A stretch of 30,402 bases of DNA from Bdellovibrionales bacterium (GTDB lineage Bacteria; Bdellovibrionota; Bdellovibrionia; Bdellovibrionales; UBA840). Positions 12,001-18,000 of this stretch are shown piece by piece. The stretch's first letter is position 1, and each line of letters begins with the position of its first letter. The position numbers are program-made. The stretch spans positions 1 through 30,402 of the forward strand of contig JBBKWS010000139.1 in the NCBI GenBank assembly GCA_037969075.1, in the 5' to 3' direction.

Positions 12001-15000
12001 AAATACATTGTCCTTAGATTGGTTGTGAGTAGTTGCTAAAGATTTTTTGTAAACAATTTTATCATAAGGAGTCTTATCAACTGTAACTCCGCTGGGTATG
12101 CGTGTGACTTTTTCTTTTTGAACACCATATTTAATTAATTCAATACTAATGGCATTCGATAAAGATATGTATGAATCTACAAGTTTGCTTACATATTTTG
12201 ATCTAGTAAGAAAATTACTACTTGGTGGGGTAGCAACTCGTCTGTGTACAACTAGCTTTAATTGAGGGTTCTTTTTTTTCACTCGTAGACAAAGACCATG
12301 AGATTTAGAAGAGTTGGCATGTATGATCTGGATATTATTTTCTCTCACAAATTTGCTAAGTGCGGAAACATTGCTAGGACGCCAATCGCTCGTTGAATCT
12401 AATTCGATGACATCAAATTCTTTTTTATATCTTGGGATGGCAGTAGATATTTTAGGGTAGGCTATTGTAACTTGATCACCTTGCTGTTTCAGGTAGCGCG
12501 CCAATAGTAAGACTTGGTTTTCACCACCACGCCAGCCTCTCTCCAAATTTACTATTAAAACATGTAACTTTGCCATTGGACCAATGTAGCCAAATTTTAG
12601 TAAATTCCAACAAAAAGTGTGATTTTTTTTTCATCAAATGCTATTTAGATGGGACGAGGTTTTTATGAAGATAACTATTATAGGCACAGGATACGTTGGA
12701 TTAGTTTCAGGAACTTGTTTTGCCGAGTTAGGAAACCAGGTAATTGGTTTAGATATCAATAAAGATACTATAGCTAGCCTCGATCGTGGCGAAATGCCTA
12801 TTTATGAGCCAGGTCTTGAGGAAATGGTAGAGCGTAATGTTAAGGCTAAACGCCTTCATTTTACTACTAACTTTGAAGCAATAAAAACTTCTGATGCGGT
12901 TTTTATTGCAGTAGGTACACCAACAGCTGACGATGGTAGTACGAATCTTAAATATTTTTATAGTGCCATAGATCAAATTATTCCCCTGATTACAGAGGAA
13001 ACGATCCTGGTGATTAAATCGACAGTGCCAGTCGGAACAGCCGAAGATGCCAAAAAGTACATATTAAATAAATTTAACAAAAAGATCGCATTGGTAAATA
13101 ACCCTGAGTTTTTAAAAGAAGGGGCTGCCATTAGAGATTTTATGAGCCCTGATCGAGTCATCATTGGGGCTAGTGATGATTGGGCAGCTAAAAAGATTGC
13201 TGAATTATATGAGCCATTTTTTGCCCAAGGGTACCGAGTTTACTTTATGTCTAACCTTTCTGCCGAGATGACTAAGTACGCGGCCAATTGCTTTTTAGCG
13301 ACAAAAGTTTCATTTATTAATGAGATAGCTAGGTTATGTGATAAGACAGGCGCCAATATTGATGAAGTACGCCAAGGGATCACAACAGACATTCGTATCG
13401 GGACGCACTTTTTATATCCAAGTCCTGGCTTTGGTGGATCTTGTTTTCCTAAGGATTTAAGAGCACTAGTGCACACAGCCAAACAACATGACAGTCCCTT
13501 ACTGATCGTAGAGTCAGTGATCGAAGCGAACGAGCGACAAAGAAAGTATATAGTTAGTAAGATCGTATCGCATTTTAAAGGTTCAGTAAGTGGTAAGAAG
13601 ATAAGTTTCTGGGGAGTTGCTTTTAAGCCAAATACGGATGATATCAGAGAGACTTCGGCGATCATGATAGCGAAGTTATTAGTAGAGGCAGGAGCTGAAA
13701 TTAAATTTTACGACCCACAGGCGGCTAGTAATTATTTAGCCTATATGAAAACATTAAATATTAAAGTTACTAAATGTGAAGATAAGTATGATTGTAGTGA
13801 TAAGTCCGATGCATTGGTACTACTAACAGAGTGGAAAGAGTTTCTGGCTCCAGATTTAAACCTGTTAAAATCTAAGATGAGTGGGGATGTAATTTTTGAT
13901 ATGAGAAACGTACTGTCGCCAGCTAAAATGAAAGAGTCTGGCTTTACATACTACGGTATAGGAAGATCGTAGTACGTTATTTACTGTCACGTTTCATTTG
14001 TGCGGCTTTTATGTATTTTAAAAATACAACGAATGCGCCAAAGCAAGAAATTACAAAACCATAATAGCCATCTAGAATACCTAGTTTTAAAAAATAGGTT
14101 CTAAAAAATTTATATTTAGAGTGAATAATAGCTTTTGTAACTAAAAACGAAGAGTCTTTTTCTAAAAGCATCTGAGCACTAAGGCTAGTGTAAGAATCCA
14201 TTTTTTTAAGATGCTCGGAAATAGATTTATACGAATAGTGTAAGATGTCCCCATTTAAAGTTTTAACCTGGCAGTTGGCAGGCAAAATGATTTTTTCATG
14301 GACAAGGTTCATGTTCCATTTAGATTCAGCGCGGGGAAATAGACGGGTTTGATAATCTGGGCGCCAGCCGCTATGGTGTATCCATTTTCCACAATAATTT
14401 GTAAGGCGGGCAAATCTGTAAGCCTCACTCAAAGAGTCCTTAACGGATAGTATCTGTTTTTGTAAAACTTCATCTAAAGCTTCGTCGGCATCTAAAGATA
14501 AAATATAATCACCCTTTGCAAGTGAATTACCAAAATTTTTAGTTTCAGAAAAACCCTTCCAATCAGTTTCAATAAATCTAACAGTATCAAACCTCAAAGC
14601 GATTGCTTTTGTGTTATCAGTGCTACCAGAATCAATAACTAGTATCTCTTCAGATACGCGCAAGCAAGATTGGATCGCCCGCTCAATATTTGTCTCTTCA
14701 TTTTTAGTGAGGATAACTGCTGATATTTTCATTCTACATTCTCTCTAGAGTTTTAATGCCAAGTAAATTCAATCCAGATTTTATGATCTGTCCACAGGCA
14801 TCTACTAATAGTGCTCTTGAAGTTCTTAGTGTTTCATCTTCAGCATGTAGTACCGAACACTGATCATACATACGACTAAAATCCTTACTTAACTCGTACA
14901 AGTAAATGCAGAGACCTTGAGGTTCATACTTATCACTAGCTTTAATTATAGTGGTATGAAACTGCTGCATTTTATTTAAAACTCTTTCTTCAGTTTCATG

Positions 15001-18000
15001 ACTAAGTCGTTGCCAGTCTGCTTTTTTACTATCAATAGCGCCAAACTTACTTTCAACCTCACGAAGTATAGATCTGGTTCTAGCGTAAGCATACATTAGA
15101 TATGGACCTGTGTTACCTGTTCGAGCCGTCCATTCTTTTAGGTCAAAAACGATATTTTTATTATTGTCTTGATTCAACATTCCGTACTTGATGGTCGCCA
15201 CGCTAATATTTCTGATGGCGTCAGCTATTTCTTCTTTAGGCCACAATCCTTCATAGGTAGATAAAAAATCTTTATAAATTTGTTTTTCTAAAGTTTCTTT
15301 TAATTCGTTTAATAAAATTACATTGCCTTTTCTTGAGCTCATTTTACCATCGGGCAAAACCACCATTCCGTAGGAAAGGTGAAAGCATTTTTCAGCTTGC
15401 TTATAGCCCATTAGCTCTAATGTTTTAAAGACCTGTTGAAAGTGCAGGCTTTGGCCCACATCAACAATATAGACAGATTTATCAATCTTAAATTGATCAA
15501 ACTTTAATTTAGCTAGGGCTAAATCTTTTGTAGCGTAGAGGCCTGTGCCATCTGACTTTAACACCATAAAAAACGGAAGGTTAAACTGATTTAGATCTAC
15601 ACCAATGGCGCCCTGATCTTTTTTAAAAATACCTTTTTCAGTGAACTCGGCCACAACTTTTTTTCCGGGAGCCGCTACTTCACTTTCGTAAAACACGTGA
15701 TCGAACCTAGCATCTAGCCATTTATAGATCTCATTGAAATCATCTAAAGACCATTGTCTGGTTTGCTGCCAGAGTTTTTCTAACTCAGGCTCGTGTTTTT
15801 CTAATTTTTGTAGGGTTTCAGATACAGCGCTCTCTCTTCGTAAAATTTCTGTCGATACTGATTCGATTTTACAGTCTGTATTTTTAAAATAATCAGATAC
15901 CTCGATGCCAATTTTAGTATCTTTAGGAAACACATAAATCTTGCTAGCGTCTTCATCTAAGCTGATTTCACTAGAGGCGCACAGCATCCCTTCGCTTGTT
16001 ACACCCTTCTTATCTGTGGCTTCAATTTTTTTGCCGTTAATTCTTGTGCCAATAAAAGCATATGGAACAATATCACTAACCGCGAAGCCCTTTACGCCGG
16101 TGACAACGGTCTTTTTGCCTTTGCTAGTTTCTACTTCAGTCACCAACCACTTGTCATTTAGTGGGTGGGTAGCAATACTTAATATTTTCGCTGTTTGTAC
16201 ATTTGGATGCGGAGCTTTTGTTAACGTATAAAAGTCTAATTGTTTGTCAGCTAAAGAGTATAGTGTTCCTAAAAACTCACCGCGGGTCATTTTATCTTTA
16301 AAAGATTCATATCGCATGCCTGATTCAATGTATTGCCACAAGCACTTAGCAATATGGGTTCCGACATCACCAATGTAATTGGCGGCAACAACTTCGTCTC
16401 CTACCCACTCGCATATATGAACTAGCGCATCACCAAGGCTCACATTTCTGGTGTGCCCTACGTGAAATGCTTTATGCGTATTGGGTTGAGAGTATTCGAT
16501 CATGGTTTTTAAACCTGAGCGTGGCCTTACTTTTAAATAAGACCCGTTTAGTATTTGCGGTATAAGATCAGCTGCTAGATCTGCTTTATTAATATTAAAG
16601 TTAAGATAGGGACCGATAGCCACAGCCTTTTGAAATTCAGTAGGTAAGTCACCAAGTAACGCAAAAATTTCTTTAGCAATGACAGGAGGTCCTTTTTTTA
16701 ATTCTTTAGAAAATTGAAAACAAGGAAAAGCTAAATCGCCTAGCTTGAGGTCTTTAGGGAGCTCAATAAGAGCCTCTAGTTCGTCGGCCGATTTATTGAT
16801 ATTCAAAGTAGGTAGTTTGGTGGCCAAATATCTTGCTAGTACGGCTTTATAGTTCATAAAAAAGTAATAGCGGTTATTTGGCTAAATGGAAAGGATTTTT
16901 ACTCTCTAGATTTTAGTTTTTTAACCGAATCAGAGATATGGTTGTTGTCAGCATTAGAATCGAATTCAATATTCACTTTTGCTTCTTTTAGGTGTTTTTC
17001 AATGGATATAAATCCCCAGTCGGCAATTTGAAAGCGCAGGTAGACTTTTCCGTTTTGAGTTATATTTCCCATGTACCTCGTCTGTGTTTGAAGAACATCT
17101 ATTAGGCTGGGAGCAAATTGCGAAAATTGTGAGGCGCCAATGTCGTTAAGAATTGTATATTCAATGTCATATAGCCAGCGACTTTCTACGGTTTGATATA
17201 AAATAATTTTTGCTAGTAACTTTGCTGTATCAAGATTTTTTTCGTTAGAAGCCAACTCTTTTTTTAGACTAACTAGTTGTGGCTCTGGCATATAGCTGTC
17301 TAGCTGGACTTTACCGGATTTTAATTCTGCAACTAGCAGCTTCTCTTCTGGAGTCCTGCCTAAGTCAATTTTCTTTGTCTGCATTTGGGCAATTAATGCT
17401 TTTGGTGAAACCGGCACTTGCACGGTTGCAATGTAGGCATGACTAATTCCTAAAAACAAAAACAAGTGTGAAAGCATATATACCCCTTGGAAAATACTGT
17501 GCAAATCTATCAGATTTACTTCTAAAATGAAATATATAGAAAATTCAAAGACTTAAGGATATACTCGCAGGTTTTAGCTTGTCGTTTATTGTCACCTTAG
17601 CTATATCAACAGACAACCATGGCTATATCAAACAACTATCAAGCACTTACAAGTGCTGAAATAAACTCAAATGAGACCTTTTGGGGTGCTACCGGCAAGC
17701 TGGGAGCTGGGTTATTTTTCGCTAGGTTAGTAGAGTGTGGAGAAAAGAGTATTCGAGTTATGTTTAACCACGGTCTTTATAGCGTGAAGCTAAGCTCTAA
17801 TCATACTAATATAAAGCCTGGAGATATTATTAAGGTAGTATTTACAGAGGCAGATAAGAGTGGTTTTTCGATAAATTTAGATGGGGAGAATGTGCAAGTA
17901 CTTGTACATTCTCAAGCCGAATCATTAAAAATCCCTTTAAATATTGAGGTAAATAAAAAGTGGCTGCATTTTATCTCACTATTACGTGAATTTTTCATTG

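What a model noticed while it worked through the whole genome (the two positions that open the first line are those of the whole stretch)
14734..16857. Arginyl-tRNA synthetase with a Trbp111/EMAPII-type tRNA-binding OB domain inserted in its catalytic core
The single ArgRS (g01744, 707 aa) is ~125 residues longer than that of Bdellovibrio bacteriovorus (580 aa) because a complete Pfam tRNA_bind domain (the OB fold of Trbp111, CsaA, EMAPII and the MetRS/PheRS appendages) is inserted between the two halves of the Rossmann-fold catalytic domain. I read it as a second, built-in tRNA clamp that holds the elbow or acceptor arm of tRNA-Arg, added as an internal insertion into a class I core rather than as a terminal appendage, which I did not find described. 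It would be a natural test case of how aminoacyl-tRNA synthetases acquire RNA-binding modules.
Evidence so far: Pfam: Arg_tRNA_synt_N 21-88; tRNA-synt_1d 107-170 (model 10-74) and 336-572 (model 111-348); tRNA_bind 220-318 (model 1-95 of 96, E 2.9e-12); DALR_1 587-707. Best Swiss-Prot hit is B. bacteriovorus HD100 ArgRS, 580 aa, 35% id over 19-707. AF2 (5-seq MSA): residues ~215-330 fold as a beta-rich domain with block pLDDT 85-96. Order sample: 114 of 121 genomes have an ArgRS match; matches that run through the insert (residues ~209-339) in all 6 other genomes of this family (ORFs 666-772 aa; one is cut by a TAA) and in 4 genomes of three other families (G003, G006, G065, G105; ORFs 695-722 aa); in the others the match starts near residue 340, with a separate piece ~1-208 where listed, in ORFs of ~ [...]
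(Added by a program. Inside this text positions count along the whole contig: contig position 1 is position 1 of the stretch shown here. "Call 12" and the like, gene names such as g00115 and contig names such as C1 are that model's own, and its searches are not shown. The text may have been shortened before it was handed on; [...] marks where a part breaks off. The agent that wrote the report below was given it as the finding of a first reader that could run no searches.)

Follow-up and report, generated by a model that had tools for sequence, protein, structure and literature searches.

The report
ArgRS with PheRS-type OB domain inside
This bacterium's only arginine-charging enzyme carries a complete small RNA-binding barrel, of the kind found at the start of the phenylalanine enzyme's beta subunit, spliced into the tip of a loop of its catalytic core, a layout shared by one enzyme lineage in three phyla that I did not find described in print.

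Summary
Window 14734..16857 (-) encodes a 707-aa ArgRS, the only one in the 90%-complete genome, with intact HIGH and MSSRK motifs and both tRNA-recognition domains. Residues 208-338 form an OB domain (Pfam tRNA_bind, 45 bits, cut-off 27).

- **Site:** the domain sits at the tip of the Ins1 helical hairpin, the CP1-equivalent site.
- **Type:** it is a PheRS-beta B2 domain, not a Trbp111 type. VIA Z is 16-18 against PheRS B2 and about 11 against Trbp111, CsaA and MetRS-C.
- **Spread:** it is not confined to this family. On a tree built without the insert columns, 37 insert-bearing ArgRS form one branch (support 100). They come from Bdellovibrionota, Planctomycetota and Holophagae. In three isolates searched, two with complete chromosomes, it is the sole ArgRS.
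- **Conservation:** the insert is as conserved as the D-loop-binding Add1 domain. Conservation peaks in loops L12 and L45 and the SxGM motif, which in Trbp111 hold the tRNA 3'-terminal CA.

The "elbow clamp" reading is therefore unlikely. My best guess (about 0.4) is a cis docking site for the tRNA-Arg 3' end beside the active site. No binding was tested. Eight completed literature searches found no description. I rate it a new variant of a known kind.

The parts
14734..16857 (-). argS: arginyl-tRNA synthetase, 707 aa (stop codon included), the only ArgRS of the genome
   Evidence: (TIGR00456 384 bits, cut-off 261.65)
16594..16797 (-). Add1 / Arg_tRNA_synt_N domain (residues 21-88), the D-loop (A20) recognition domain of ArgRS
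   Evidence: Pfam PF03485 E 4.7e-11; role of Add1 from PMC3956977 passages
16237..16542 (-). First half of the Rossmann catalytic core plus the ascending Ins1 helix (residues 106-207; helix 192-207)
   Evidence: Pfam tRNA-synt_1d model 10-74; DSSP of the AF2 model
16453..16464 (-). HIGH signature, HVGH (residues 132-135), invariant in 118 of 118 aligned homologues
15844..16236 (-). Inserted PheRS-beta B2-type OB domain (residues 208-338) at the tip of the Ins1 helical hairpin
   Evidence: Pfam tRNA_bind 220-318; TIGR00472 pheT positions 40-162, E 2.1e-20; 33% identity over 115 aa to the genome's own PheT B2, E 1e-15; profile vs PDB; domain model pLDDT 96.9 and VIA Z 18.1 to 4p71_A; clean insertion relative to sisters
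16147..16167 (-). L12 loop of the OB domain, HPLNDKW (residues 231-237); H231 in 95 of 118, P232 in 100 of 118, W237 in 81 of 118
   Evidence: matched to Trbp111 E32-K33 by motif reading (inference)
15985..15996 (-). SEGM motif (residues 288-291): S288 and G290 invariant, M291 in 106 of 118; counterpart of Trbp111 S82/M85, which line the A76 pocket
   Evidence: profile 13-90 = Trbp111 17-91; PMC11286949 section 8
15118..15843 (-). Descending Ins1 helices (334-353, 357-380) and second half of the catalytic core (residues 339-580)
   Evidence: Pfam tRNA-synt_1d 336-572 = model 111-348; DSSP
15328..15342 (-). KMSKS-equivalent loop, MSSRK (residues 506-510); S508 and R509 invariant
14737..15099 (-). 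DALR anticodon-binding domain (residues 587-707)
   Evidence: Pfam PF05746 E 3.4e-31

Best explanation
This is the cell's working arginyl-tRNA synthetase. At the tip of its Ins1 helical hairpin, the ArgRS counterpart of connective peptide CP1, it carries a whole B2-type OB domain captured once from a PheRS beta subunit-like gene. The lineage was then passed on, partly by gene replacement, among Bdellovibrionota, Planctomycetota and Holophagae.

Shown: the anatomy, the homology, the single origin, the sole-copy status and purifying selection on the insert.

Inferred mechanism: the OB domain keeps the nucleic-acid-binding face of its superfamily (loops L12 and L45 plus the SxGM motif). It acts in cis as a low-affinity docking site for the single-stranded 3' end (CCA) of tRNA-Arg, next to the place where the acceptor end enters the active site. 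That could serve three purposes: raise the local tRNA concentration, hand the 3' end to the catalytic pocket, or hold it before arginine binds or after charging. This would matter for an enzyme that cannot activate its amino acid without bound tRNA. In this reading it is a non-catalytic analogue, by position, of the CP1 editing domains of LeuRS, IleRS and ValRS, to which the 3' end also swings.
For: **Working enzyme**
- TIGR00456 scores above its cut-off, and the HIGH and MSSRK motifs, Add1 and DALR are present.
- It is the only ArgRS in G000.
- The only DALR_1 match in each of three cultured carriers lies in the insert-bearing frame: Sulfidibacter corallicola M133, Saltatorellus ferox Poly30 and Acanthopleuribacter pedis KCTC 12899.
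- The genome's own tRNA-Arg genes are canonical, with A20, G73 and an encoded CCA.

**Site**
- Yeast ArgRS aligns to query 73-169 and 344-707. E. coli ArgRS aligns to 45-173 and 361-707, so the unaligned part corresponds to E. coli Ins1 164-221 (boundaries from PMC3956977 passages).
- The AF2 model (pLDDT 95.8) shows helix 192-207, beta strands 220-310 and helix 334-353.
- Insert-less sisters join the two helices directly.

**Type**
- pheT model, E 2.1e-20.
- 33% identity to the genome's own PheT B2.
- PheRS beta E 2.6e-21, YtpR-like 3bu2 E 1.7e-16, Trbp111 E 4.6e-4.
- Z 18.1, rmsd 2.5 over 120 residues to 4p71_A, against Z 10.9 to Trbp111 8vtz_A.

**Single origin**
- Tree of 74 ArgRS built without the insert columns: the 37 insert-bearing rows are one side of a branch, SH-aLRT 100, 1 change; phyla are interleaved inside.

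**Selection**
- Mean pairwise identity of the insert is 0.41 against 0.42 for Add1, over 1500 random pairs of 118 sequences.
- All 3 invariant insert columns (S288, G290, E297), the near-invariant G270 and G285, and the conserved basic positions 272, 276 and 283 lie in L45 and the strand after it. HP..W is conserved in L12.

**Ligand of the superfamily**
- Trbp111 binds only the 3'-terminal C75-A76, through L12 and L45, with S82 and M85 lining the A76 pocket. Fusion to aaRS lowers the Km for tRNA (PMC11286949, sections 8, 9, 13).
- ArgRS needs tRNA for amino-acid activation (PMC7373986 passage; PMC3956977).
[quoted passage not shown] I saw only the title, in the reference list of PMC5370408.
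Against: - No binding experiment exists for this insert.
- I could not obtain model coordinates. The distance and orientation of the OB pocket relative to the active site and to the tRNA of 1F7U or 5B63 are therefore unmeasured.
- By gapless mapping, the Trbp111 residues most important for binding are not kept: R75 (the R75A substitution nearly abolishes binding) corresponds to position 281 (V/A/T/I), and F78 to the variable position 284. The insert has the PheRS B2 pattern instead.
- The insert is more acidic than the rest of the enzyme: -4.3 against -1.8 net charge per 100 residues. That argues against an electrostatic RNA clamp, though it is compatible with a base-specific hydrophobic pocket.
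- From recall, not checked here: in crystal complexes of PheRS with tRNA-Phe the B2 domain does not touch the tRNA.
- The title of Roy and Ibba 2006 calls B2 dispensable.
- Most listed ArgRS in the same order have no insert.
Confidence: 0.4

Rival explanations
1. Second tRNA-body clamp: the OB domain grips the acceptor stem, T-arm or elbow of tRNA-Arg rather than the 3' end, adding affinity or specificity.
For: The CP1-equivalent position lies on the acceptor side of class I enzymes (established knowledge of class I aaRS; PMC7373986 passage on CP1). Five conserved basic positions are present in the insert: 224, 272, 276, 283 and 325. The Trbp111 CA-pocket residues R75 and F78 are not conserved, so the ligand could differ from that of Trbp111.
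Against: Solution and crystal data show that this OB class does not use the elbow or T-loop (PMC11286949, section 9). The insert carries a net negative charge. The genome's tRNA-Arg genes show no unusual D-loop, discriminator or 3' end that would call for a new contact. The gene has moved between phyla, which favours a universal ligand.
Confidence: 0.2
2. Protein-contact module: the OB domain mediates self-association of ArgRS or docking to another protein (for example another synthetase, EF-Tu or a trans-editing factor) rather than RNA binding.
For: Relatives of this fold act as dimer or protein-binding modules: Trbp111 and CsaA are dimers, and CsaA is a chaperone (PMC11286949 passage of section 6, and section 13; CsaA entries). 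The acidic surface suits protein contacts.
Against: The Trbp111 dimer uses its N- and C-terminal extensions (PMC11286949 passage). In the insert those positions are the connections to the Ins1 helices. Conservation is concentrated in the loops that bind nucleic acid in the superfamily. No conserved partner gene was identified: the gene 41 bp upstream has no family, and the genome has no free-standing B3/B4 editing protein.
Confidence: 0.12
3. Quality-control helper: as B2 is said to do in PheRS, the domain holds the 3' end of mischarged tRNA-Arg (for example canavanyl-tRNA) for hydrolysis or release to a trans-acting factor.
For: The title of Roy and Ibba 2006, seen only in a reference list, says the PheRS RNA-binding domain contributes to editing. 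The insert sits at the CP1 site, where class Ia editing domains sit. A B3/B4-family enzyme edits canavanyl-tRNA-Arg in other bacteria (PMC12268091, highlights seen in the search listing only).
Against: No hydrolytic domain is present in the protein. In this genome PF03483 (B3_4) matches only PheT.
Confidence: 0.08
4. Structural passenger: the domain was inserted once in a tolerant, flexible loop and persists for folding or stability reasons, without binding any ligand.
For: The tip of Ins1 is disordered in E. coli ArgRS (residues 178-187 and 203-204; PMC3956977), so the site is permissive. From recall, B2 is itself a nested domain with adjacent termini. Most listed ArgRS in the same order lack it.
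Against: It is retained in all 37 rows of the clade, with no loss. It is as conserved as Add1. Its invariant residues are the functional motif of the superfamily, not only core positions.
Confidence: 0.15

Closest known systems
B2 domain of the bacterial PheRS beta subunit (PheT residues about 40-160; PDB 4p71, 6oz5/3pco, 2iy5/1pys, 7k98)
   Same: Same fold and sequence subgroup. VIA Z 16.3-18.1, rmsd 1.9-2.9 over 113-120 residues, 21-30% identity. Profile E 2.6e-21. 33% identity to this genome's own PheT B2, colinear through SxGMLC..E and the LP.D..G tail.
   Different: Host protein and site: here it is nested in the class I ArgRS catalytic core, not in the N-terminal module of a class II beta subunit. 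PheT position -4 from the Ser (Arg in 'KLRG') is variable here, and position -5 is K/R.
Terminal Trbp111/EMAPII/B2-type OB appendages of aaRS: MetRS C-terminus, TyrRS, and the B2-TyrRS and LysRS-B2 fusions of candidate phyla radiation (CPR) bacteria
   Same: A tRNA_bind-superfamily OB domain is recruited by a synthetase. Such fusions lower the Km for tRNA (PMC11286949 section 13). A PheRS B2 domain is known to move to other synthetases (PMC5370408 passage).
   Different: Those are N- or C-terminal fusions on flexible linkers. This one is an internal insertion, predicted to be rigidly packed (pTM 0.89). ArgRS is not among the hosts listed in PMC11286949 or in Table 2 of AARS Online (PMC11580382).
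Trbp111 / CsaA / YgjH free-standing tRNA-binding proteins
   Same: OB fold with an extended L12, an L45 hairpin and the SxGM motif. S288 and M291 correspond to Trbp111 S82 and M85.
   Different: More distant: Z 8.8-11.2 and profile E 4.6e-4. There are no terminal dimerisation extensions. The counterparts of R75 and F78 are not conserved.
CP1 editing domains of LeuRS, IleRS and ValRS
   Same: A whole globular domain is nested in the connective peptide between the Rossmann halves of a class I synthetase, at the side where the tRNA 3' end enters (established knowledge; CP1 defined in a PMC7373986 passage).
   Different: No similarity in fold or sequence, and no hydrolase. No editing-domain family matches in Pfam or NCBIfam.
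Canonical ArgRS (yeast 1BS2/1F7U, E. coli 4OBY/5B63, N. gonorrhoeae 6AO8)
   Same: Whole-chain fold: Foldseek E 7.1e-34, TM 0.80 normalised to the target for 1f7u_A. Same domains and motifs.
   Different: About 120-130 extra residues inside Ins1. The insert-less sisters have 13-30 residues where this protein has 141.

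Membership tests
Arginyl-tRNA synthetase (TIGR00456 argS equivalog) | Score above the curated whole-protein cut-off | tested here: met
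   384.4 bits against a cut-off of 261.65. Two other argS equivalog models (NF002446, NF002447) fall below their cut-offs (298 against 399; 258 against 460), as expected for a protein split by an insert.
Arginyl-tRNA synthetase (TIGR00456 argS equivalog) | Class I signatures (HIGH and the KMSKS-equivalent loop) and the ArgRS-specific Add1 and DALR domains | tested here: met
   HVGH 132-135 is invariant. In MSSRK 506-510, S508 and R509 are invariant. PF03485 covers 21-88 and PF05746 covers 587-707.
Arginyl-tRNA synthetase (TIGR00456 argS equivalog) | Serves as the cell's ArgRS (no other copy) | tested here: met
   PF00750 and PF05746 match only this ORF in G000, which is 90% complete. There is one DALR_1 match, in the insert-bearing frame, in each of 3 genomes of cultured carriers.
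Arginyl-tRNA synthetase (TIGR00456 argS equivalog) | Arginylation of tRNA-Arg | not testable with these tools
   Needs an enzyme assay.
tRNA_bind superfamily (PF01588 / IPR002547) | Pfam score above the gathering threshold over the full model | tested here: met
   45.2 bits against 27; residues 220-318 = model 1-95 of 96.
tRNA_bind superfamily (PF01588 / IPR002547) | OB barrel with the conserved SxGM motif after L45 | tested here: met
   Domain model pLDDT 96.9. Z 8.8-18.1 to solved members. S288 and G290 in 118 of 118, M291 in 106 of 118.
tRNA_bind superfamily (PF01588 / IPR002547) | 3'-CA pocket residues of Trbp111 (K33, R75, I77, F78, S82, M85) | tested here: inconclusive
   S82 and M85 are kept. 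K33 corresponds to K236, which is Lys in 51 of 118. By gapless mapping R75 corresponds to 281 (V/A/T/I), I77 to K283 (K/R) and F78 to 284 (variable). No residue-level structural alignment was available.
tRNA_bind superfamily (PF01588 / IPR002547) | Binds tRNA | not testable with these tools
   Needs a binding assay.
PheRS-beta B2 / YtpR subgroup | Closest by sequence profile and by structure, well separated from other subgroups | tested here: met
   E 2.6e-21 to 2.4e-8 for PheRS beta and 1.7e-16 for 3bu2, against 3.4e-5 or weaker for MetRS-C and Trbp111. Z 16-18 against 11 or less. TIGR00472 positions 40-162, E 2.1e-20.
Trbp111/CsaA-type free-standing dimer | Free-standing protein whose N- and C-terminal extensions form the dimer interface | tested here: not met
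   The domain is nested. Its termini continue into Ins1 helices 192-207 and 334-353. The description of the Trbp111 interface comes from a PMC11286949 passage.
CP1 editing domain (LeuRS/IleRS/ValRS) | Hydrolytic editing fold inserted in CP1 | tested here: not met
   The site is equivalent (Ins1), but the fold is an OB barrel and no editing family matches.

The most novel reading that the evidence does not exclude
The OB domain is a non-catalytic docking station for the tRNA 3' end, built into the CP1 site of a class I synthetase. It parks C75-A76 next to the active site and thereby gates or accelerates the tRNA-dependent activation of arginine. That would be a living example of the step that may have preceded CP1 editing domains: first a 3'-end binding module in the connective peptide, later chemistry.
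Probability: 0.2. Interest if true: 0.75.

Novelty: new variant of a known kind. Interest (0 to 1): 0.55.

Why it matters
Appended RNA-binding domains are a main route by which synthetases gain affinity and new functions. The documented cases of this OB class are terminal fusions on MetRS, TyrRS, PheRS and LysRS.

Here a whole B2 domain is nested in the connective peptide of a class I core. It is fixed in a large lineage and is the sole ArgRS of three cultured, harmless bacteria: Saltatorellus ferox Poly30, Acanthopleuribacter pedis and Sulfidibacter corallicola.

Close insert-less sister enzymes exist, so the effect of gaining the module can be measured by simple deletion or graft experiments. 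ArgRS is also one of the few synthetases that need tRNA to activate the amino acid, so a second tRNA-end site beside the active site could change its kinetics in an informative way.

It also gives a second context in which to learn what the poorly understood PheRS B2 domain does.

Tried and rejected
- **Self-association of the insert.** Complex prediction with 2 copies of alignment A2 gave no verdict (score 0.01, mark 0.42). It is not evidence either way.
- **Donor lineage.** PheRS beta proteins of about 910 aa with two tandem B2 domains scored highest among non-ArgRS hits of the insert profile. The score is the sum of two domains of 35-78 bits each, below single-domain PheT hits of 93-106 bits. 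They are therefore not nearer relatives, and no donor can be named.
- **Free-standing B3/B4 (CtdA-like) editing partner.** PF03483 matches only PheT in the window's genome.
- **Unusual tRNA-Arg.** The three genes found (UCG twice, UCU) have A20, G73 and an encoded CCA. Only 26 tRNA genes were recovered from this draft genome, so other isoacceptors were not seen.
- **A tRNA gene or obvious partner next to argS.** There is no tRNA in the window. The neighbours are glycosyltransferases, EpmA, HU and two proteins without a family.
- **Model coordinates.** These are not available in the script box, so no superposition on the tRNA complexes could be made.
- **TAL-effector chains.** These are low-complexity artefacts (0 stretches pass) and were ignored.
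- **Literature.** Searches found no description of an OB domain in ArgRS. One search was swamped by unrelated 'INS-1' papers. The M. tuberculosis PheRS-tRNA paper (PMC8136816) has none of my six search terms on the OB domain. The library holds open-access papers and bioRxiv only. Roy and Ibba 2006, Cavarelli 1998 and Delagoutte 2000 could not be read.
- **Earlier notes of this scan.** A look-up by sequence and one by place gave nothing.

Full report
**Observation**

The ORF at window 14734..16857 on the minus strand starts with ATG and encodes 707 residues.
- Arg_tRNA_synt_N at 21-88.
- tRNA-synt_1d in two stretches (best 336-572 = model 111-348; the other is model 10-74).
- tRNA_bind at 220-318 = model 1-95 of 96 (E 1e-11, 45.2 bits, cut-off 27).
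- DALR_1 at 587-707.

NCBIfam's argS equivalog TIGR00456 scores 384.4 bits (cut-off 261.65). The best family for the inserted part is pheT_bact, positions 40-162, E 2.1e-20.

HVGH (132-135) is invariant, and in MSSRK (506-510) S508 and R509 are invariant, in an alignment of 118 homologues. In the window's genome (2.50 Mb, 211 contigs, 90% complete), PF00750 and PF05746 match only this ORF. It is therefore the housekeeping ArgRS. The genome has three tRNA_bind domains: one in a frame identified as MetRS by reading its translation (not by a family search), one in PheT, and this one.

**Where the insert sits**

- Yeast ArgRS (1bs2/1f7u) aligns to query 73-169 and 344-707. E. coli ArgRS (4oby) aligns to 45-173 and 361-707.
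- The E. coli structure paper places Ins1 at residues 164-221 and reports its tip (178-187, 203-204) as disordered (PMC3956977, passages). The unaligned part of the query therefore corresponds to Ins1, the ArgRS counterpart of connective peptide CP1 (CP1 definition: PMC7373986 passage).
- AF2 with the 118-sequence alignment gives mean pLDDT 95.8, pTM 0.89 and no segment under 50. It shows helix 192-207, beta strands through 220-310, then helices 334-353 and 357-380.
- In the nearest insert-less ArgRS the two helices are joined by a short turn. Those proteins have 13-30 residues where this one has 141.
- The OB domain is thus a clean insertion at the tip of the Ins1 helical hairpin.
- The whole model matches ArgRS structures (1f7u_A: E 7.1e-34, TM 0.80 normalised to the target). 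Locally it matches PheRS beta chains (6oz5_B, 4p71_A, 6p8t_E: 128-157 columns, 25-30% identity).

**What kind of OB domain it is**

- The insert is 33% identical over 115 residues (E 1e-15) to the B2 domain of the genome's own PheT. The two are colinear through the SxGMLC..E motif and the following LP.D..G segment.
- A profile of 33 inserts (A2) ranks PDB chains as follows: PheRS beta 4p71 2.6e-21, 3pco 7.1e-19, the YtpR-like 3bu2 1.7e-16, T. thermophilus PheRS 2.4e-8. Well below come MetRS-C 5h34 3.4e-5 and Trbp111 1pyb 4.6e-4. TAL-effector rows in that table are artefacts.
- The domain folded alone has pLDDT 96.9. VIA-align gives Z 16.3-18.1 (rmsd 1.9-2.9 over 113-120 residues) to PheRS B2 domains and 16.1 to YtpR. 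There is then a step down to Z 8.8-11.3 for MetRS-C, CsaA, Trbp111, EMAPII and Arc1p.
- It therefore belongs to the PheRS-B2/YtpR branch of the tRNA_bind superfamily, not the Trbp111/EMAPII branch.

**Distribution and history**

- Of the 120 best proteins in the 5.8-billion-sequence collection, all but two fragments (P0034, 667 aa; P0079, 423 aa) are 692-781 aa. 110 of the 120 carry PF01588 in the precomputed Pfam column. Source names include Bdellovibrionales, Planctomycetota and Acanthopleuribacter pedis.
- In the species-level genome collection, 38 of the 80 best loci have a match that runs through the insert. One more (L041) is cut by its contig end inside the insert, and 41 lack it.
- Carriers include Saltatorellus ferox Poly30, Sulfidibacter corallicola M133 and Acanthopleuribacter pedis KCTC 12899. 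The nearest insert-less forms are from Oligoflexia, Nannocystaceae and other Myxococcota, SAR324 and Lambdaproteobacteria.
- I built a tree of 74 ArgRS (the window plus 73 loci; 7 truncated or odd rows dropped: L009, L021, L041, L050, L057, L074, L085) without the insert columns. The 37 insert-bearing rows form one side of a branch with SH-aLRT 100 and a single change. Inside that branch, Acidobacteriota, Planctomycetota and Bdellovibrionota rows are interleaved.
- This was a 'quick' IQ-TREE search, midpoint-rooted for drawing only, so gain and loss cannot formally be told apart. One capture followed by spread, partly horizontal, is the simplest reading.
- In the order sample (131 genomes including the window's own) the insert-spanning form occurs in 11: family f1 7 of 7, f5 2 of 25, f3 1 of 2, f6 1 of 1. 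Other ArgRS frames listed there are 584-626 aa, apart from one of 689 aa (88 weaker matches were not listed).
- In each of the three cultured carriers the only DALR_1 match lies in the insert-bearing frame.
- At 50% clustering, 34 of the 150 best representatives for the insert profile are ArgRS (33 by flanking similarity, plus P0019). 16 of them are 650 aa or longer with both flanks. Most of the rest look like PheT.

**Selection on the insert**

Over 1500 random pairs of the 118 sequences, mean pairwise identity is:

| Region | Mean pairwise identity |
|---|---|
| Insert | 0.41 |
| Add1 | 0.42 |
| DALR | 0.53 |
| Two core halves | 0.60-0.64 |

The three invariant insert columns (S288, G290, E297) lie in L45 and the strand after it. 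So do the near-invariant G270 and G285, M291 (106 of 118) and the conserved basic positions 272, 276 and 283. H231, P232 and W237 are conserved in L12.

**Mechanism**

The most relevant published work is the 2024 Trbp111-tRNA co-crystal study (PMC11286949; I read sections 8, 9 and 13).
- It shows that this OB class recognises only the 3'-terminal C75-A76, through L12 and L45. S82 and M85 line the A76 pocket. The elbow and T-loop do not contribute. Fusion to synthetases lowers the Km for tRNA.
- The insert keeps the Ser and Met. It has Asp-Lys where Trbp111 has E32-K33 (Lys in 51 of 118).
- By gapless mapping, the counterparts of R75 and F78 are aliphatic and variable respectively, as in PheRS B2.
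- The insert is also more acidic than the rest of the protein: -4.3 against -1.8 net charge per 100 residues.
- ArgRS needs bound tRNA to activate arginine.

Putting these together, I think the most likely role is a cis docking site for the single-stranded 3' end of tRNA-Arg beside the active site. By position it would be analogous to CP1 editing domains, but without chemistry. I give this about 0.4, because no binding has been measured and I could not compute the geometry (no coordinates).

The rivals are:
- a clamp on the tRNA body (0.2);
- a passenger domain with no ligand (0.15);
- a protein-contact module (0.12);
- a helper in quality control (0.08). The last is prompted by the title of Roy and Ibba 2006, seen only in a reference list. 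It is weakened by the absence of any hydrolytic domain or free B3/B4 protein.

**Novelty**

None of the 8 completed full-text searches turned up an ArgRS with this domain.
- PMC11286949 lists MetRS, PheRS and TyrRS as hosts.
- Table 2 of AARS Online lists MetRS, PheRS-B beta and TyrRS.
- Mukai et al. 2017 describe B2 fused to the ends of TyrRS and LysRS.

The sequences themselves are public and annotated simply as arginine--tRNA ligase. Three earlier notes of this scan report the same layout in other genomes, one of them in Naegleria gruberi. They are unchecked leads. I reproduced their main points independently for bacteria and did not test the Naegleria claim.

My verdict: a real and well-supported feature, and a new variant of a known kind (an aaRS that has recruited a tRNA_bind OB domain, here as an internal CP1-site insertion). 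Its function is inferred, not shown.

Noticed in passing
window 17619..18875 (+): EpmA/GenX (EF-P lysine aminoacylase; TIGR00462 303.9 bits, cut-off 286.9) matched only over residues 115-410 of a 418-aa ORF. The first 114 residues or so have no family, so this is either an N-terminal extension or an over-called start.
   Followed up: partly
window 16899..17504 (-): 201-aa ORF ending 41 bp upstream of argS on the same strand, with no Pfam or NCBIfam family. It is possibly co-transcribed with argS.
   Followed up: partly
P0126, P0131, P0132, P0147 (metagenome proteins, about 910 aa): PheRS beta subunits with two tandem B2 (tRNA_bind) domains ahead of B3_4, B5, the core and FDX-ACB. Their high total score against the ArgRS-insert profile is the sum of the two domains.
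   Followed up: partly
P0159 (855 aa, metagenome): Protein with three B2-like OB domains (305-414, 456-577, 651-767) and no other Pfam family at E 1e-5.
   Followed up: no
P0139 (820 aa), P0156 (870 aa), P0235 (851 aa): Insert-bearing ArgRS variants with further additions. P0156 has an N-terminal extension of about 170 residues. In P0139 the OB region is stretched to about 178 residues.
   Followed up: no
G000 contigs 41 and 143: Two identical tRNA-Arg(UCG) genes near contig ends. Only 26 tRNA genes were recovered from the draft genome.
   Followed up: no
window 8137..14732 and 20616..21872: argS lies among sugar-metabolism genes: two GT4 glycosyltransferases, a GT2 glycosyltransferase and a UDP-glucose/GDP-mannose dehydrogenase. 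A radical-SAM protein, a methyltransferase, HU and a NUDIX hydrolase are also nearby.
   Followed up: no
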